Below, piece by piece: positions 1,524 through 11,972 of a DNA stretch of 64,000 bases (its first letter is position 1; each line of letters starts with the position of its first letter). Both the position numbers and the translations under genes were made by a program. The stretch lies in NCBI RefSeq assembly GCF_003334405.1, contig NZ_QOWM01000004.1; one strand, given 5' to 3'. The DNA comes from Escherichia coli (GTDB taxonomy: Bacteria > Pseudomonadota > Gammaproteobacteria > Enterobacterales > Enterobacteriaceae). The notes under the pieces were generated by a model that searched no databases, had not been told where the DNA came from, and saw only the letters and a list, made by a program, of their open reading frames with translations.

Positions 1524-2660
1524 ATGTTTGATTATGAAACATTGCGCTTCATCTGGTGGCTGCTGATTGGCGTGATCCTGGTGGTCTTTATGATCTCCGA
1601 CGGATTTGACATGGGGATCGGCTGTCTGCTGCCGCTGGTGGCGCGTAATGATGATGAACGCCGGATAGTGATAAACAGCGTTGGTGCACACTGGGAAGGC
1701 AACCAGGTCTGGTTGATCCTCGCTGGTGGGGCATTATTTGCCGCCTGGCCCAGAGTGTATGCAGCGGCGTTTTCCGGCTTTTATGTGGCGATGATCCTGG
1801 TGCTGTGCTCACTGTTCTTCCGCCCGCTGGCCTTTGATTATCGCGGAAAAATCGCCGATGCACGCTGGCGTAAAATGTGGGACGCCGGTCTGGTCATCGG
1901 CAGTCTGGTGCCGCCGGTAGTCTTCGGTATCGCCTTCGGCAACTTGTTGCTCGGCGTGCCGTTTGCCTTCACACCGCAATTACGCGTGGAGTATCTCGGC
2001 AGCTTCTGGCAACTGCTGACGCCATTCCCTTTATTGTGCGGATTGCTCAGCCTTGGGATGGTGATTTTGCAAGGTGGCGTCTGGTTACAACTGAAAACTG
2101 TTGGTGTGATTCATCTGCGTTCACAGCTGGCGACCAAACGCGCTGCACTGTTGGTGATGCTGTGCTTTTTGCTGGCGGGTTACTGGCTGTGGGTCGGTAT
2201 TGATGGCTTTGTACTGCTCGCCCAGGATGCTAACGGTCCTTCCAATCCGTTAATGAAACTGGTGGCAGTGCTACCTGGTGCCTGGATGAATAATTTTGTC
2301 GAGTCGCCCGTTTTGTGGATCTTCCCGCTGCTGGGATTCTTCTGCCCATTGCTGACGGTGATGGCGATTTATCGTGGTCGCCCGGGTTGGGGATTTTTGA
2401 TGGCATCATTGATGCAATTTGGCGTGATTTTCACGGCAGGCATCACGCTGTTCCCCTTTGTCATGCCGTCAAGCGTGAGTCCGATCTCCAGCCTGACGTT
2501 GTGGGACAGTACTTCCAGTCAGCTGACGCTGAGCATTATGTTGGTAATCGTGCTGATATTTTTGCCCATTGTGTTGCTCTACACTCTCTGGAGCTACTAC
2601 AAAATGTGGGGGCGCATGACAACAGAAACTCTCCGCCGTAACGAAAACGAGTTGTACTAA
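1524..2660 (+). CDS. appB: Cytochrome bd-II ubiquinol oxidase subunit II
   Basis: Track ORF of 378 aa ([17 protein letters not shown]...), 11 nt after appC stop; polytopic membrane protein, length matches AppB. Confidence 0.95.
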
Positions 2661-2672
2661 GGAGCAGAAACA

Positions 2673-2765
2673 ATGTGGTATTTACTTTGGTTCGTCGGCA
2701 TTTTGTTGATGTGTTCGCTCTCCACCCTTGTGTTGGTATGGCTGGACCCGCGTCTGAAAAGTTAA
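2673..2765 (+). CDS. appX: Small membrane subunit of cytochrome bd-II oxidase (30 aa)
   Basis: ATG at 2673 preceded by GGAG; encodes MWYLLWFVGILLMCSLSTLVLVWLDPRLKS, stop TAA 2763-2765; below the ORF-track size cutoff. Confidence 0.8.
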   Translation: MWYLLWFVGILLMCSLSTLVLVWLDPRLKS

Positions 2766-2770
2766 CGAAC

Positions 2771-2806
2771 GTAGGCCTGATGCGGCGCATTAGCATCGCA
2801 TCAGGC
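2771..2806. repeat. REP-like palindrome (gcctgatgcg...cgcatcaggc), probable transcript-end structure after appCBX
   Basis: Inverted repeat read directly; resembles the REP family seen elsewhere in the window. Confidence 0.5.
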
Positions 2807-2844
2807 AATCAATAATGTCAGATATGAAAAGCGGAAACATATCG

Positions 2845-4143
2845 ATGAAAGCGATCTTAATCCCATTTTTATCTCTTCTGATTCCGTTAACCCCGCAATC
2901 TGCATTCGCTCAGAGTGAGCCGGAGCTGAAGCTGGAAAGTGTGGTGATTGTCAGTCGTCATGGTGTGCGTGCTCCAACCAAGGCCACGCAACTGATGCAG
3001 GATGTCACCCCAGACGCATGGCCAACCTGGCCGGTAAAACTGGGTTGGCTGACACCGCGCGGTGGTGAGCTAATCGCCTATCTCGGACATTACCAACGCC
3101 AGCGTCTGGTAGCCGACGGATTGCTGGCGAAAAAGGGCTGCCCGCAGTCTGGTCAGGTCGCGATTATTGCTGATGTCGACGAGCGTACCCGTAAAACAGG
3201 CGAAGCCTTCGCCGCCGGGCTGGCACCTGACTGTGCAATAACCGTACATACCCAGGCAGATACGTCCAGTCCCGATCCGTTATTTAATCCTCTAAAAACT
3301 GGCGTTTGCCAACTGGATAACGCGAACGTGACTGACGCGATCCTCAGCAGGGCAGGAGGGTCAATTGCTGACTTTACCGGGCATCGGCAAACGGCGTTTC
3401 GCGAACTGGAACGGGTGCTTAATTTTCCGCAATCAAACTTGTGCCTTAAACGTGAGAAACAGGACGAAAGCTGTTCATTAACGCAGGCATTACCATCGGA
3501 ACTCAAGGTGAGCGCCGACAATGTCTCATTAACCGGTGCGGTAAGCCTCGCATCAATGCTGACGGAGATATTTCTCCTGCAACAAGCACAGGGAATGCCG
3601 GAGCCGGGGTGGGGAAGGATCACCGATTCACACCAGTGGAACACCTTGCTAAGTTTGCATAACGCGCAATTTTATTTGCTACAACGCACGCCAGAGGTTG
3701 CCCGCAGCCGCGCCACCCCGTTATTAGATTTGATCAAGACAGCGTTGACGCCCCATCCACCGCAAAAACAGGCGTATGGTGTGACATTACCCACTTCAGT
3801 GCTGTTTATCGCCGGACACGATACTAATCTGGCAAATCTCGGCGGCGCACTGGAGCTCAACTGGACGCTTCCCGGTCAGCCGGATAACACGCCGCCAGGT
3901 GGTGAACTGGTGTTTGAACGCTGGCGTCGGCTAAGCGATAACAGCCAGTGGATTCAGGTTTCGCTGGTCTTCCAGACTTTACAGCAGATGCGTGATAAAA
4001 CGCCGCTGTCATTAAATACGCCGCCCGGAGAGGTGAAACTGACCCTGGCAGGATGTGAAGAGCGAAATGCGCAGGGCATGTGTTCGTTGGCAGGTTTTAC
4101 GCAAATCGTGAATGAAGCACGCATACCGGCGTGCAGTTTGTAA
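2845..4143 (+). CDS. appA: Periplasmic pH 2.5 acid phosphatase / phytase (histidine acid phosphatase)
   Basis: Track ORF 2815..4143; start moved to internal ATG giving MKAILIPFLSLLIPLTPQSAFA signal peptide and 432 aa; RHGVRAP histidine-phosphatase motif present. Confidence 0.92.
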   Translation: MKAILIPFLSLLIPLTPQSAFAQSEPELKLESVVIVSRHGVRAPTKATQLMQDVTPDAWPTWPVKLGWLTPRGGELIAYLGHYQRQRLVADGLLAKKGCPQSGQVAIIADVDERTRKTGEAFAAGLAPDCAITVHTQADTSSPDPLFNPLKTGVCQLDNANVTDAILSRAGGSIADFTGHRQTAFRELERVLNFPQSNLCLKREKQDESCSLTQALPSELKVSADNVSLTGAVSLASMLTEIFLLQQAQGMPEPGWGRITDSHQWNTLLSLHNAQFYLLQRTPEVARSRATPLLDLIKTALTPHPPQKQAYGVTLPTSVLFIAGHDTNLANLGGALELNWTLPGQPDNTPPGGELVFERWRRLSDNSQWIQVSLVFQTLQQMRDKTPLSLNTPPGEVKLTLAGCEERNAQGMCSLAGFTQIVNEARIPACSL

Positions 4144-8076: not shown

Positions 8077-10173
8077 TTATTGTCCAACCGGTACTTCTCG
8101 CTCTGCCGTCATTGGATAGAGCTGGTATTTGCGTGACAGCATTTGTCCACCATCACGCGTCAATGGTGTCCACGAAACCACCGCGCGGTTGCGGTTAGGT
8201 CCAATGGTCATCAAGTCGAATGGAATCGAGATATAAAAACCTTTACTAAAGCCGCCTTCGCCGTAGTCATCTTTAGATACGTTACTGATTGCCGCCCATA
8301 CCCCTACCGCCACGCCGCTGTCAAAGCGTTTGGCGACGTCGATCGTTGCGCCTTTATCTTTTGCCAGATATTGCCCAACGCTAAGTTTCATCAGTACGCC
8401 ATTGAGCGTCGGCGGGTTCCAGTAAGCCGTCACGAAACCTGTTGGCGTGGAATAATCGGTGAAACGCATCATGTTGTCCCAGTCACGTTGCTTCACGTAG
8501 TTAACGTCCACACCCAGCGCCCAGCAGGCATCTAGCGGGCGATAAAGCAGCTCGGAACCGACACCGGCGTACATCGTTTCCAGATAACCGCCATACACCT
8601 GGCCATAGAAACCATTGCCTAAGTCAGCAAAATAGTTCGCCTGCAAGTTGTTGAGATAAACGTCATTGCGAACGTAGTCACGGATATGCGTGCGCACGCG
8701 GGGCAGGGTAGAGTCCGCGGGCAACAGCGAAGACTTAAACTTGTCGTAGTTGTTGTAAATATTGGTGAAAATACCGCCATCAAGCAGCAGGTGGTCGGTA
8801 AACCAGTAGCGGGCACTGGACATCAGCCCCAGCTGGAACATATAGAAATCTTCCGGGCCGCCCAGCGACTGTGAAAGTGTTGGGTTGAAAGAGTAGCTAA
8901 AGCGATCTTCACGAATACGGTAGCCCCGACCAAAGGCAGAAAGATCTTCAGCTTCAACACGTTGTTGTTGCAGTGGCTCTGATTGACCAGGCGCTGTACC
9001 TGCCAGCTGTTTGCGCAGGCTGGCTACGTCGGTTTCGGTAGTCACCATCGCCATATGCTCGCGCTTTTGCGTCACGCTAATCTTCTCAACGCCTTGCGGC
9101 AGGTTATTCACCAGAATCCGGTTGGCACGATCGACCGCTTCACGAGAGTCACGGTATTTGTATTGCTGACCAGACATATACAGTGTCTTATCGCGTAGCT
9201 GAATTTCTGGCGCGTCAAAGCCCGCGTTATACTTCAGGGCGGTAAGTTGGTTTGCTACCGTGGTGTACTGCAATCCTTCAGATTCAGGCGCAGGTTGATA
9301 TGCCGGTTTTGGCGTATCGCGCAGGGCAGGGCGCAGATCGTTGAAATTGGTCCGTAACGTGAAGCCAAACATCAACGTGTTACCGCGTTCATAACTCAGG
9401 TTGAGATCTGCCCAGCTGGCAGCGCGATAAACTGCGCCGACGTTGAAATGGCTTGCCTGAGGCAGTTTGCCAGCGAAATCATTCTGGTAATTGTTTCCAT
9501 CGTATTCGAGTTTCAGACGCAGGGGATTCCACGGCGTTTGATACTCAATGCCGCCAAAGATGGAAGCCGGGCCACGAAAGATATCGCTAAAGCTGATATC
9601 GCCCGCATCGTGAGACTCTGCGCGATGACAATATTTATCGCTCACCCGGCAAAACGGGTTGGTAATATTGCCCGCATTACCGGCGTAGCCCCATGCCATC
9701 CCGAGGGTGAAATCAAATGGCCCCGCTTGCTTGCTGGCCACCAGATACTCACCGTCAAACAGACCCGTACCAGCAATATCACGTTTACCAAACGCCACTT
9801 GCGGTAGCCAGTAACCTTCTTCCCACAGGCGAAGTTTAAAATCGAATGATTTGTCTTTGTATGACTGATCGCCGCTGAAATCTTCCCACTGGCTATATTT
9901 GCGTGTGCGCACATCCGTATAACGAATGGTGCCTTCCAGCCATGGGAACAGCGCCACGGAGGTGGAGTAGAACCGGTATTGATCGTTATCCCGGTAGTTG
10001 ACGCTGAATTCACCTTCCGGTGCGATGCGCGCATTTGGCATCTGCAACAATCCTGTGCCGCCAAAGTCTGATTGCGACGAACCCAGCGGATCCGGGTAGG
10101 TTAATACTTCAGCATGACAGGCACTGGAGACGGCAATGGCCAGGCAGCTTAAAAGATAAGAATTCTTCTTCAT
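8077..10173 (-). CDS. gfcD: Outer-membrane beta-barrel protein of the group-4 capsule operon
   Basis: Track ORF of 698 aa, [22 protein letters not shown] signal peptide; length matches GfcD. Confidence 0.93.
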
Positions 10174-10919
10174 CAGTCAGGAACACGTTGCGTTAAAACA
10201 GACACAATCTGGTCATTTAAATCAGCATATTTTTCGGGCAGTACATGCGCAGAAAAGCCCAACCAAAGCTGGCTGCCAGGCGGTGGTTCCACATGTCTTT
10301 TATTCCACAGGGCAACAGGGGCGACGACAGTCTCACCCTCAGGCGTAATCACCATAACGTTATTCTTGTCCGCGCCTGCAAGGCGGGGGTGATCTTGCAG
10401 ATAATCGGTAACGCTACGGCCTGCCTGCCAGGGCAATTGCCCGGCCCCAGAAACCGCACCCAGCAGAGTAATAGTCACCGGACGCTGTACGGTATAGAGC
10501 GTATAGTCCCCGACCAACGGGGGATTGCTGTTCTCATCCACTCGTACAAAATCAGGGTCCAGTTTGACCGGTAAGCGACCAGTGATATTGAGATTGAGTA
10601 ACTGCTGGCGCACGGATTTAATCGTTGCCGCCACATCGTCGTCAGCTTCTGCTTCCCAGGAAGCAAGCTGTGCCATGACATGTTGGTAGTCTTTAAGCGC
10701 TTTAGCTTTCGCCGCAGAGTCGGTCAGCAAGGCACCAGGCCACCAGAGGCGATCGCGCAGTTGCGGTTGTGTCACCAACTGGACAACATTTTCCACGGGG
10801 CCAACGGAAAGTGTCTGTTGTTCGCCAGGCAGATAAATAGTCACCGTTCCTTGCGCAAAGGCATGGGGTGTCATTACGTAAAGTACGCTGGCAATGAAAT
10901 ACGACTGTAATTTATTCAT
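10173..10919 (-). CDS. gfcC: Periplasmic group-4 capsule operon protein
   Basis: Track ORF of 248 aa with signal peptide; stop overlaps gfcD start by 1 nt. Confidence 0.92.
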
Positions 10920-11560
10920 GGTGCGGGTTTAAGAAACGTCATTTCTACGGGAATAACCCCTGCGCCTAACATTTGCCGACTTTGACGAACCTGGCCAGTA
11001 GCCGAATCGACCCAGAATGTGTTTTGCCACTGTTTTTCTGGCCGCGTGGAAGTCACCTCTTCCTGCCAGACATTACACAGCACATTGCGACCCGCAATAT
11101 TCAGCGTCTCTAATCCAGCAAAGGAAAAAGTAGAACTCAGGGTCGCAGAGCGAAAATGGTTGTCTTCACTCCAGAGAATATCGCGCGTCCAGCGGCTGCC
11201 ATCTTTTATTGCCAGCGCGTTACGCAGAGGGTCCTGCCCGGAATTTGTCACTTCCAGCAGATTATTATTAAGTTTGACGGTTTTTAAAAGACGTCCATTG
11301 TGGGTAACCAGCATGGCGTTATCCTGGGATAACCATTTGCTTTGTTCTTGTTCTATATATCCCAGTACCACAAAGATTCGTTGCCCTTCATTAAGGCGTA
11401 AATACATAGTGGAATAAGGCAACGCCTGGATCTGCTGATCCGCTACGGTGATATCCTGATTATCGAAAAGGCTGGCGCGAAATGTATCGACCATACTTTG
11501 CTGGCTGTGCGTACATCCCGCAAGAAATAGTGCGAAAATCGATAAAATAAGAGGGCGCAC
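10916..11560 (-). CDS. gfcB: Lipoprotein of the group-4 capsule operon
   Basis: Track ORF of 214 aa, GTG start at 11558-11560, LAGC lipobox; 4-nt overlap with gfcC start. Confidence 0.9.
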   Translation of the reverse strand: MRPLILSIFALFLAGCTHSQQSMVDTFRASLFDNQDITVADQQIQALPYSTMYLRLNEGQRIFVVLGYIEQEQSKWLSQDNAMLVTHNGRLLKTVKLNNNLLEVTNSGQDPLRNALAIKDGSRWTRDILWSEDNHFRSATLSSTFSFAGLETLNIAGRNVLCNVWQEEVTSTRPEKQWQNTFWVDSATGQVRQSRQMLGAGVIPVEMTFLKPAP

Positions 11561-11666
11561 CTTTAATCCTTGAAAGGTTAATTAAAAAAATGCAAATCTC
11601 TAAAGCCCGGTACGAATATCGCAACCGGGTATCATTTAACTTTAATTTCGACGCGTTAAAGCGGTA

Positions 11667-11972
11667 TTAGCGTGTAGTGGACGTGGTGGTTGAGGTGTTA
11701 TGAGAACCGCCATCGCCACTGTCATTTGCTGCAACAACTGCCAACGTCGCCACACCAACAGCCGTTGCCACACCGACAACTGTCGCCGTGCCGACAGCGC
11801 CAGCAGCCACGCCACCAGTGGTAGTAGCAGTCGTGGTTGCGCCGGTAGTGGTCGTTGTGGTGCCAGTAGTACCCGTCGTTGCCTCGGTCCCGTTTGTTGC
11901 TTCAGGGGCAGCAAACGCAGCTGGCGTCGTCAACATGAAGGCCATAAGGATTGCAGAAAGCTTGTGTTTCAT
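11667..11972 (-). CDS. gfcA: Thr/Gly/Ala-rich secreted protein, first gene of the gfc operon
   Basis: Track ORF 11667..11990; ATG at 11972 gives 101 aa MKHKLSAILMAFMLTTPAAFA signal peptide followed by a low-complexity T/G/A region. Confidence 0.85.
   Translation of the reverse strand: MKHKLSAILMAFMLTTPAAFAAPEATNGTEATTGTTGTTTTTTGATTTATTTGGVAAGAVGTATVVGVATAVGVATLAVVAANDSGDGGSHNTSTTTSTTR

What the first reader, a model, noticed from the sequence alone, without database searches (positions are those of the whole stretch)
11667..11972. GfcA is a signal-peptide protein made almost entirely of Thr/Gly/Ala repeats
Seen directly: after a 21-residue signal peptide the product is low-complexity (TTGTTGTTTTTTGATTTATTTGGVAAGAVGTATVVGVATAVGVATLAVVAA...). 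This composition suggests an O-glycosylation-like or mucin-like surface polypeptide, and repeat instability. The antisense ORFs the track calls here (11700-12014, 11788-12096) are artefacts of the same repeats.
Basis: seen in the sequence. Interest (0 to 1): 0.25.

Follow-up and report, generated by a model that had tools for sequence, protein, structure and literature searches.

The report
Known capsule gene gfcA, threonine-rich
This is gfcA, the already known first gene of the E. coli O-antigen capsule operon; its odd threonine-rich product is real, but it does not change length between strains, and how it works is still unknown.

Summary
Window 11667-11972 (minus strand) encodes a 101-aa protein: a 21-residue signal peptide, then 80 residues that are 70% Thr/Gly/Ala (81% with Val). 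It is gfcA (ymcD), 100% identical to E. coli K-12, and heads gfcABCDE-etp-etk. Published work shows that an EPEC gfcA deletion loses the capsule and that a gfcA plasmid restores it.

- **Repeat instability:** not supported. All 97 spread-sampled full-length matches, out of about 3,600 gfcA-bearing complete E. coli genomes, are colinear (CDS exactly 306 bp). The DNA repeats are short and degenerate, and Thr uses all four codons.
- **Mucin-like O-glycosylation:** untested. Larson et al. 2021 already proposed it.

Comparing 68 syntenic homologues plus 67 database clusters changes the picture. The conserved parts are the signal peptide, a Gly/Ala/Val hydrophobic segment and a C-terminal poly-Thr tail that usually ends in Arg. 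The N-terminal Thr-rich stretch is an Escherichia-specific expansion.

The 'inner membrane' annotation is insecure. Insertion energy is marginal and no positive charges follow the segment.

Verdict: a known gene of unresolved mechanism and low interest.

The parts
11667..11972 (-). gfcA (ymcD) coding sequence, 101 codons plus TAA
   Evidence: ORF list and translation. 100% identical to K-12 MG1655 gfcA and annotated 'threonine-rich inner membrane protein GfcA' in RefSeq.
11979..11983 (-). Shine-Dalgarno-like AAGGA, 6 nt before the ATG at 11972
   Evidence: Read from the sequence. The alternative in-frame ATG at 11990 has no such site.
11910..11972 (-). Signal peptide, residues 1-21 (MKHK / LSAILMAFML / TTPAAFA), cleavage after A-F-A
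   Evidence: Sequence features. The junction AFA|AP is conserved in the family alignment. AF2 predicts a helix at 3-13.
11808..11909 (-). Thr/Gly/Ala low-complexity stretch, residues 22-55; 53% Thr; variable and Escherichia-specific
   Evidence: Segmentation. It appears as a 20-27-column insertion relative to the family. Thr fraction is 0.53 against a family median of 0.12. The 15-bp indels in E. albertii and in variant L075 lie here.
11730..11807 (-). Hydrophobic Gly/Ala/Val/Thr segment, residues 56-81, built of degenerate hexapeptide units (xVGVAT)
   Evidence: Kyte-Doolittle 19-residue mean up to 2.16. 18-nt x3 direct repeat at 11745-11798. AF2 helix at 60-83 with low confidence. Summed Hessa dG about +1.0 kcal/mol.
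11670..11729 (-). Conserved polar tail, residues 82-101: ANDSGDGGSHNTSTTTSTTR (acidic Gly turn, then poly-Thr, then terminal Arg)
   Evidence: Tail length is 15-21 aa in 68 of 68 family members, it holds 5-11 Thr in 67 of 68, and the last residue is Arg in 61 of 68. The same design appears in 67 database clusters.
11700..12014 (+). Antisense ORF (104 aa), codon-aligned with gfcA; spurious
   Evidence: 13 amino-acid changes from 16 allelic substitutions. An ORF of >=80 aa is open in this frame in only 16% of homologous loci. Not annotated in RefSeq.
11788..12096 (+). Antisense ORF (102 aa) in the frame that shares wobble positions with gfcA; spurious
   Evidence: 80% of codon-order shuffles give >=102 aa, and 67% of homologous loci have an ORF of >=80 aa in this frame. 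It runs into the promoter region and is not annotated.
11606..11629 (-). Hairpin CCCGGT(N12)ACCGGG in the 106-bp gfcA-gfcB spacer
   Evidence: RNA fold, conserved in Escherichia. It is not a canonical terminator and its role is unknown.
10916..11560 (-). gfcB, YjbF-family lipoprotein (operon partner)
   Evidence: (PF11102).
10173..10919 (-). gfcC (operon partner)
8077..10173 (-). gfcD, YjbH-family outer-membrane protein (operon partner)
   Evidence: (PF06082).

Best explanation
**Identity (shown).** The feature is gfcA (formerly ymcD), the first gene of the E. coli group 4 (O-antigen) capsule operon gfcABCDE-etp-etk.

**Anatomy (shown).** It encodes a small pre-protein with four parts:
- a Sec signal peptide cleaved by signal peptidase I (residues 1-21);
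- a Thr/Gly/Ala low-complexity stretch (22-55);
- a Gly/Ala/Val hydrophobic segment (56-81);
- a polar tail ending in poly-Thr-Arg (82-101).

**Family (shown).** It is the capsule-operon paralogue of YjbE. A gene of this design sat just upstream of the gfcB/yjbF-type lipoprotein gene at every locus examined where the upstream DNA was available. Across the family the signal peptide, the hydrophobic segment and the poly-Thr tail are kept. The N-terminal Thr-rich stretch is a fast-evolving, Escherichia-specific expansion. Within E. coli the gene has a fixed length of 306 bp, so it is not a phase-variable repeat locus.

**Function (from the literature).** The gene supplied in trans on a plasmid restores the capsule to an EPEC gfcA deletion mutant.

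**Mechanism (inferred, not shown).** After export and signal-peptide cleavage, the roughly 80-residue polypeptide is intrinsically disordered and has one marginally hydrophobic segment. I propose that it is not stably retained in the inner membrane. Instead it works in the outer part of the envelope with GfcB (a LolA-like lipoprotein), GfcC and the two-barrel outer-membrane protein GfcD. In this model the hydrophobic segment is a membrane or partner-binding element, the conserved poly-Thr tail is the recognised part, and the variable Thr-rich stretch is a spacer.
For: **Identity and context.**
- ORF and translation.
- 100% DNA identity to K-12 gfcA (H46).
- Identical gene order torCRTS-yccM-gnsA-ymcE-ymcF-cspG-cspH-gfcABCDE-etp-etk-appA in RefSeq.

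**Family.**
- Of 70 gfcB/yjbF loci, 67 carry a small ORF of this design (71-115 aa) 100-290 bp upstream. At the other three the upstream flank is cut at about 170-250 bp by the contig end. With the window gene this makes 68 family members.
- Profile-profile comparison of gfc-type against yjb-type gives probability 98.7%, E 4e-16.
- PF11106 (YjbE) hits 29 of the 39 members in the alignment.
- A profile search finds 67 clusters with the same design.
- Two distant members lie next to a YjbF homologue in a different gene order.

**Fixed length.** (97 of 97 sampled matches colinear).

**Purifying selection in the gfcA frame.** 12 of 16 substitutions are synonymous.

**Function.** An EPEC gfcA deletion loses buoyancy and capsule and is complemented by pgfcA (PMC3853201). 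All gfc genes are reported as required (PMC8592465, citing Peleg 2005).

**Mechanism.**
- AF2 predicts helices only for the signal peptide and the hydrophobic segment; the rest is coil, mean pLDDT 51. This agrees with 'natively unstructured' in PMC8346858.
- Summed Hessa insertion energy for the best 19-mer is +0.98 kcal/mol here and +1.7 at the family median.
- No Lys/Arg occurs within 12 residues after the segment in 67 of 68 members, while Asp/Glu is present in 61 of 68.
- All operon partners are periplasmic or outer-membrane proteins. The N-terminal barrel of GfcD resembles FapF, which transports an unfolded polypeptide (PMC8346858, PMC9603273).
Against: No localisation, topology or mass-spectrometry data for GfcA or YjbE were found in the searchable literature.

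Classical hydropathy (Kyte-Doolittle 2.0-2.7) and published TM predictors call the segment transmembrane, and RefSeq names the protein 'inner membrane'.

The insertion-energy estimate used here is a crude position-independent sum. For several gfc-type members it is about 0 or slightly negative.

AF2 on a GfcA-linker-GfcB-linker-GfcC fusion gave no confident docking. The GfcA part had pLDDT 22-33 while GfcB and GfcC reached 80-97. No direct contact with GfcB or GfcC is therefore supported, although the fusion trick and the 16-row alignment are weak tests.

E. coli GfcA itself does not reach any Pfam or NCBIfam threshold.
Confidence: 0.5

Rival explanations
1. GfcA is what the annotation says: a bitopic inner-membrane protein. 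After signal-peptide cleavage the Thr-rich N part faces the periplasm, the hydrophobic segment spans the inner membrane, and the poly-Thr tail sits in the cytoplasm. There it would assist an inner-membrane step (Wzx/Wzy/Etk) that diverts O-units into capsule polymer.
For: - Kyte-Doolittle mean up to 2.16 over 19 residues.
- AF2 helix at 60-83.
- The N region is net acidic (-1 to -4 in 63 of 68 members), while the tail usually ends in Arg.
- SOSUI, TMpred and TMHMM predictions reported in PMC10299036 and 10.1101/391854.
- Overexpressed YmcD lowered D-Ala accumulation, which hints at an inner-membrane effect (PMC10299036).
- Weak PDB-profile similarity to Gly-rich TM helices (PsaK, V-ATPase c subunit), with E about 0.6-1, not significant.
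Against: - No positive charge follows the segment within 12 residues in 67 of 68 members, and acidic residues do.
- Insertion energy is marginal or unfavourable.
- In the yjb-type the hydrophobic core is only about 17 residues.
- The best-conserved part would then be cytoplasmic, although GfcB, GfcC and GfcD all lie outside the inner membrane, and yjbEFGH encodes no inner-membrane partner.
Confidence: 0.33
2. This is the reader's reading and the speculation of Larson et al. GfcA is a mucin-like carrier. Its Ser/Thr residues are O-glycosylated with O-antigen, and the glycopeptide is exported through GfcD to the surface. There its hydrophobic segment anchors the capsule.
For: - Thr is 30% of the protein.
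- The product is disordered and exported.
- A poly-Thr tail is conserved family-wide.
- The GfcD N-barrel is FapF-like (PMC8346858, PMC9603273).
- The speculation is stated in PMC8592465.
- How the group 4 capsule is anchored is not known.
Against: - There is no experimental sign of glycosylation.
- The operon encodes no glycosyltransferase or O-oligosaccharyltransferase.
- YjbE has the same tail in K-12-type backgrounds that lack O-antigen.
- The Thr-rich N stretch is not conserved.
- Pro, typical of mucin domains, occurs once in the mature protein.
- The same GfcA allele (>=97% identity) occurs in O157, O111, O104, O145 and K-12 strains. It is therefore not tuned to the glycan.
Confidence: 0.13
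3. gfcA is a contingency locus. Slippage in its repeats expands or contracts the Thr tract and switches the capsule on and off, or varies the product.
For: - Degenerate 18-nt and 21-nt repeats are present.
- A 15-bp deletion flanked by ACCAC microhomology occurs in one rare variant, and a 15-bp length difference in E. albertii aligns to the same columns.
- The N stretch ranges from 10 to 56 aa among genera.
Against: - 97 of 97 sampled E. coli matches are colinear.
- There is no perfect repeat tract, and Thr codons are mixed.
- The observed inactivations are by IS1, IS5 or large deletions, not by slippage.
Confidence: 0.02
4. The ORF acts mainly in cis as a Thr-rich leader peptide. Ribosome stalling on Thr codons, together with the hairpin in the gfcA-gfcB spacer, would tune transcription or translation of gfcBCDE.
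For: - A run of Thr codons sits near the 3' end.
- The spacers are 100-290 bp and this one contains a hairpin.
Against: - The deletion is complemented in trans by gfcA alone (PMC3853201).
- A conserved signal peptide and hydrophobic segment make no sense for a leader peptide.
- The hairpin is not terminator-like and its fold is not exceptional, z -1.45.
Confidence: 0.02

Closest known systems
GfcA (YmcD) of E. coli K-12 / EPEC O127:H6, first gene of the group 4 capsule operon (Peleg et al. 2005; Larson et al. 2021, PMC8592465)
   Same: It is the same gene. The CDS is 100% identical to MG1655 (H46), with the same neighbours and the same operon. The 30% Thr content, the 101-aa length and 'inner membrane or secreted' are already in print (PMC8592465).
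   Different: The window lacks the IS1 element that sits upstream of gfcA in K-12. The operon promoter region is therefore uninterrupted here.
YjbE (Pfam PF11106) of the yjbEFGH exopolysaccharide operon
   Same: - The position directly upstream of a YjbF/GfcB lipoprotein gene is the same.
- The design is the same: signal peptide, Ala/Gly-rich stretch, Gly-rich hydrophobic segment, acidic Gly turn and poly-Thr C-terminus.
- Profile-profile probability is 98.7%.
   Different: - GfcA carries an extra 20-27 residues of Thr-rich sequence and a longer hydrophobic segment (26 against 17 residues).
- It has a shorter Thr run in the tail.
- It does not reach the PF11106 threshold.
- Its operon continues into gfcE-etp-etk.
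Mucin-type or O-glycosylated Ser/Thr-rich bacterial surface proteins (for example P. aeruginosa 1244 pilin, which carries an O-antigen unit on its C-terminal Ser; from my own knowledge)
   Same: Both are Thr-rich, disordered, exported polypeptides encoded in a locus that handles O-antigen polymer.
   Different: - GfcA has no Pro-rich tandem repeats.
- No dedicated oligosaccharyltransferase is encoded nearby.
- No glycosylation has been shown.
- The conserved Thr run is only 5-11 residues, at the extreme C-terminus.
Unfolded secretion substrates of outer-membrane barrels (FapC with FapF, CsgA with CsgG)
   Same: GfcA is a small, Sec-exported polypeptide predicted to be unstructured. It is encoded first in an operon whose outer-membrane protein has a FapF-like barrel (PMC8346858, PMC9603273).
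   Different: GfcA has no amyloid-type imperfect repeats. No secretion has been shown. AF2 gave no confident complex with GfcB and GfcC, and GfcD was not modelled.

Membership tests
Group 4 capsule operon gene gfcA | First gene of a co-oriented gfcA-gfcB-gfcC-gfcD-gfcE-etp-etk array between cspH and appA | tested here: met
   ORFs in the window. Identical order and names in RefSeq strain E2865. tblastn finds all seven products in related loci.
Group 4 capsule operon gene gfcA | Sequence identity to the characterised gfcA | tested here: met
   100% over 306 bp to K-12 MG1655 gfcA. 2,511 genomes are at >=99% identity.
Group 4 capsule operon gene gfcA | Required for capsule formation | not testable with these tools
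   Literature only: an EPEC gfcA deletion loses the capsule and pgfcA restores it (PMC3853201). All gfc genes are reported as required (PMC8592465).
YjbE family (Pfam PF11106) | Match to the PF11106 profile above threshold | tested here: not met
   E. coli GfcA gives no hit, even at E <= 10. By contrast, 29 of 39 syntenic homologues match at E <= 0.001.
YjbE family (Pfam PF11106) | Homology detectable by profile-profile comparison | tested here: met
   hhalign of gfc-type (A4) against yjb-type (A5) gives probability 98.7%, E 4e-16 over 77 columns. Low complexity may inflate the score.
YjbE family (Pfam PF11106) | Small gene adjacent to a YjbF/GfcB lipoprotein gene, with YjbG/GfcC and YjbH/GfcD following | tested here: met
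   Window, 67 of 70 loci and distant metagenomic loci.
YjbE family (Pfam PF11106) | Architecture: signal peptide, hydrophobic Gly-rich segment, acidic Gly turn, poly-Thr C-terminus | tested here: met
Bitopic inner-membrane protein | A hydrophobic segment with favourable insertion energy, and positively charged residues on the cytoplasmic flank | tested here: inconclusive
   Kyte-Doolittle 2.16, but summed Hessa dG is +0.98 kcal/mol. There are no K/R and two Asp within 12 residues after the segment. AF2 predicts a helix at low confidence.
Mucin-like / O-glycosylated surface protein | Pro/Thr/Ser tandem repeats and a cognate glycosylation enzyme | tested here: not met
   The mature protein has one Pro and there is no exact tandem repeat. 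No transferase gene lies in the operon.
Mucin-like / O-glycosylated surface protein | Glycan attached to Ser/Thr of the product; surface exposure | not testable with these tools
   No data were found in the literature searched.
Contingency (phase-variable repeat) locus | A perfect short-repeat tract with length polymorphism among strains | tested here: not met
   Only degenerate repeats are present. All 97 sampled matches are colinear.
C-terminal sorting signals (PEP-CTERM, GlyGly-CTERM, LPXTG) | A signature motif, then a TM helix, then a basic cluster at the very C-terminus, recognised by curated NCBIfam/TIGRFAM models | tested here: not met
   NCBIfam gives no hit at E <= 0.01. The hydrophobic segment is followed by a 20-residue acidic, Thr-rich tail rather than a basic cluster.

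The most novel reading that the evidence does not exclude
Mature GfcA (and YjbE) is not an inner-membrane protein. It would be an unfolded secretion substrate of the FapF-like barrel of GfcD/YjbH, chaperoned through the periplasm by GfcB and GfcC. It would end up in or on the outer membrane as the protein anchor of the O-antigen capsule, possibly carrying polysaccharide on the conserved poly-Thr tail. The hydrophobic segment would replace a lipid anchor. That would answer how the group 4 capsule is held on the cell.
Probability: 0.13. Interest if true: 0.65.

Novelty: already known. Interest (0 to 1): 0.2.

Why it matters
Group 4 capsules shield EPEC, EHEC and Shigella sonnei from host defences. 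The roles of GfcA-D and the way the polymer is anchored remain open questions.

The finding itself adds nothing new. The gene, its Thr content and the glycosylation idea are all published.

Three points from this check may help whoever studies it:
- The conserved, and so probably functional, part is the hydrophobic segment plus the poly-Thr tail. The conspicuous Thr-rich stretch is not conserved.
- The gene is length-invariant in E. coli and is shared across O serotypes. It is neither phase-variable nor serotype-matched within the species.
- The 'inner membrane' label rests on hydropathy alone, and the flanking charges argue against it.

Tried and rejected
- **Direct family assignment.** Pfam and NCBIfam scans of GfcA gave nothing. 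Family assignment needed synteny and profile-profile comparison.
- **Length survey in protein databases.** The 5.8-billion-protein search returned only frameshifted, truncated or chimeric variants. Length statistics were therefore taken from DNA searches.
- **Solved structures.** A PDB profile search found no relative, only insignificant Gly-rich TM helices.
- **Structure of GfcA alone.** AF2 with a 39-row family alignment gave mean pLDDT 51, so no fold search was attempted.
- **Complex modelling.** An AF2 run on a GfcA-(GGGGS)6-GfcB-(GGGGS)6-GfcC fusion with paired rows folded GfcB and GfcC well. GfcA stayed at pLDDT 22-33, which gives no support for a complex.
- **Terminator or attenuator in the gfcA-gfcB spacer.** No terminator-like site was found, and the hairpin fold has z -1.45.
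- **Rfam.** Only a weak cspA-like hit upstream at cspH.
- **Hidden divergent gfcA alleles in the third of genomes without a match.** Rejected. gfcBC is absent from the same genomes: 3,708 genomes have gfcBC against 3,608-3,673 with gfcA.
- **Substitution pattern as a test of antisense ORF 11788-12096.** Uninformative, because that frame shares wobble positions with gfcA. It was replaced by codon-shuffle and homologue tests.
- **Peleg et al. 2005.** The paper could not be opened.

Full report
**Observation.** Window 11667-11972 on the minus strand is an ORF of 101 codons.
- An AAGGA sits 6 nt before the ATG at 11972. An in-frame ATG at 11990 has no such site.
- Residues 1-21 (MKHK, LSAILMAFML, TTPAAFA) form a standard signal peptide with Ala at -3 and -1.
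- The mature 80 residues are 35% Thr, 19% Ala, 16% Gly and 11% Val.
- Against the window's own long ORFs (Thr 5.4%), 30 Thr in 101 residues has P = 9e-15. The entropy of the mature part is 2.74 bits, below all 1,437 background 80-aa windows, whose minimum is 3.31.
- The 'repeats' are degenerate. There are three 18-nt units at 72-83% identity in the hydrophobic part and 2.3 units of 21 nt at 74% in the Thr part. Thr uses all four codons.

**Identity.** The CDS is 100% identical to gfcA of K-12 MG1655 and is annotated 'threonine-rich inner membrane protein GfcA'.
- The surrounding genes match RefSeq strain E2865 gene for gene: torC, torR, torT, torS, yccM, gnsA, ymcE, ymcF, cspG, cspH, gfcA-E, etp, etk, appA.
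- Unlike K-12, the window has no IS1 between cspH and gfcA.
- Published work shows that an EPEC gfcA deletion loses buoyancy and capsule and is restored by a plasmid carrying only gfcA and its promoter (PMC3853201). All gfc genes are reported as required (PMC8592465).
- Larson et al. already noted the 30% Thr content and the 101-aa length. They described the protein as 'inner membrane or secreted' and speculated that O-antigen might modify GfcA for export through GfcD (PMC8592465).
- Solan et al. call GfcA natively unstructured (PMC8346858). Fruet et al. call it entirely uncharacterised (PMC11494523).

**Repeat instability.** Of 5,426 complete E. coli genomes, 3,608-3,673 carry gfcA.
- gfcBC is present in 3,708 genomes, so the whole module is simply absent from about one third, and there is no hidden divergent allele class.
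- In rows taken at even steps down the ranking, 59 of 59 full-length CDS matches span exactly 306 bp. All 38 full-length matches to a 541-bp region are colinear, apart from IS1 insertions upstream.
- Only 28 of 3,608 matches are below 95% identity.
- Alleles from O157:H7 and two divergent strains differ by 6-16 substitutions, mostly synonymous (12 of 16 in the most divergent), with no indel.
- The one E. coli length variant found came from draft assemblies. It has a 15-bp in-frame deletion flanked by ACCAC microhomology, in an operon that has also lost gfcB, gfcC and part of gfcD.
- One complete genome has gfcA replaced by IS5.

**Family comparison.** A scan of species-representative genomes with a GfcB profile gave 70 loci.
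- At 67 of them a small ORF of 71-115 aa lies 100-290 bp upstream of the gfcB/yjbF homologue. The other three are cut by contig ends about 170-250 bp upstream. With the window gene this makes 68 family members.
- Eleven of those loci continue into gfcE (gfc-type; 12 counting the window). The rest are yjbEFGH-type.
- All share one design: a signal peptide of 21-26 residues; an Ala/Gly/Thr/Ser/Glu stretch of 10-56 residues; a Gly/Ala/Val/Leu/Ile hydrophobic segment of 17-30 residues; and a tail of 15-21 residues. The tail has an acidic Gly turn followed by Thr residues (5-11 in 67 of 68 members) and ends in Arg in 61 of 68.
- The E. coli Thr-rich stretch appears as a 20-27-column insertion. Thr is 53% of that stretch in E. 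coli against a family median of 12%, while the tail is 48% Thr family-wide.
- Within Escherichia the signal peptide is identical. The hydrophobic segment (24 of 26) and the tail (19 of 20) are nearly so, while the N stretch has diverged and changed length.
- PF11106 (YjbE) recognises 29 of 39 members but not E. coli GfcA. Profile-profile comparison of the two types gives 98.7% probability.
- A profile search of 1.8 billion cluster representatives finds 67 clusters of 65-135 aa with the same design.
- Two distant members lie beside a YjbF homologue in other gene orders. One weak hit does not.
- A 2018 preprint already reported the high between-lineage variability of gfcA and proposed a serotype-specific role (10.1101/391854). 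Within E. coli that is not the case: near-identical alleles occur in O157, O111, O104, O145 and K-12 strains.

**Topology and mechanism.**
- Classical hydropathy calls residues ~56-82 transmembrane, with a 19-residue mean up to 2.16. AF2 draws a helix at 60-83, but mean pLDDT is only 51 and everything else except the signal peptide is coil.
- On the Hessa biological scale (simple sum), the best 19-mer costs +0.98 kcal/mol here. The range is -0.3 to +1.4 for the gfc-type, and the family median is +1.7.
- No Lys/Arg follows within 12 residues in 67 of 68 members, whereas Asp/Glu does in 61 of 68. By the positive-inside rule this is a poor stop-transfer signal.
- Every encoded partner is outside the inner membrane: GfcB is a lipoprotein with a LolA-like fold, GfcC is periplasmic, and GfcD is an outer-membrane double barrel with a FapF-like N-barrel (PMC8592465, PMC8346858, PMC9603273).
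- I therefore favour, weakly, a model in which mature GfcA leaves the inner membrane and works with GfcBCD. This step is inference.
- An AF2 run on a GfcA-GfcB-GfcC fusion with paired rows folded GfcB and GfcC (pLDDT 80-97) but left GfcA at 22-33. No contact is supported.
- No paper with localisation or mass-spectrometry data was found.

**Antisense ORFs.**
- The ORF at 11700-12014 is codon-aligned with gfcA. It is open because reverse complements of Thr, Ala, Gly and Val codons are never stops. The single TCA and CAT codons near the gfcA 3' end supply its stop and start.
- That ORF takes 13 amino-acid changes from 16 substitutions. Only 16% of homologous loci have an ORF of >=80 aa in that frame.
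- The ORF at 11788-12096 lies in the frame that shares wobble positions with gfcA, so substitution patterns cannot judge it.
- For that frame, 80% of codon-order shuffles give >=102 aa, and 67% of homologous loci carry an ORF of >=80 aa there.
- RefSeq annotates neither ORF.

**Verdict.** This is a correctly read, already known gene. The composition is real and extreme. The predicted repeat instability is not seen. The glycosylation idea is published and still untested. Interest is low; the open question is where mature GfcA ends up and what its poly-Thr tail does.

Noticed in passing
window 11973-12413: There is no IS1 between cspH and gfcA. The spacer is 441 bp, against 1,218 bp in K-12 MG1655, where IS1D lies about 90 bp upstream of gfcA. 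The capsule operon promoter region is therefore uninterrupted in this strain, although the gfcA CDS equals that of K-12.
   Followed up: partly
window 11606-11629 (minus strand): A hairpin CCCGGT(N12)ACCGGG lies in the 106-bp gfcA-gfcB spacer and is conserved in E. albertii and Escherichia sp. It is not a canonical terminator (no adjacent T run; fold z -1.45). Homologous yjbE-yjbF spacers are also long, at 100-290 bp.
   Followed up: partly
window 11988-11990 (minus strand): An in-frame upstream ATG would add MNKGKV to the N-terminus. It lacks a Shine-Dalgarno site. Some database entries for Escherichia homologues start even further upstream (118-119 aa).
   Followed up: partly
window 11642-11914 (minus strand): A same-strand, out-of-frame ORF of 90 aa overlaps gfcA. 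It is another mechanical ORF allowed by the stop-poor composition.
   Followed up: no
L004 (NZ_LR536431.1) 2001-3038; L075 1501-1839: Natural gfcA inactivations occur by IS5 replacement, and by a deletion fusing the gfcA 3' end into gfcD (with a 15-bp deletion in the Thr stretch). IS1 insertions upstream are common. About one third of complete E. coli genomes lack gfcA-gfcC altogether.
   Followed up: partly
window 12377-12700 (minus strand): There is a weak Rfam match to the cspA thermoregulator over the cspH 5' region, at 21 bits against a gathering score of 78.
   Followed up: no
Only frameshifted, truncated or chimeric variants are indexed. Protein-database surveys of this low-complexity family are therefore misleading.
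   Followed up: yes
L078 and L079 (metagenome contigs): Distant YjbE-like genes from GC-rich organisms sit next to a YjbF/GfcB homologue, but in different order and orientation. This suggests a functional pairing that goes beyond inherited operon structure.
   Followed up: partly
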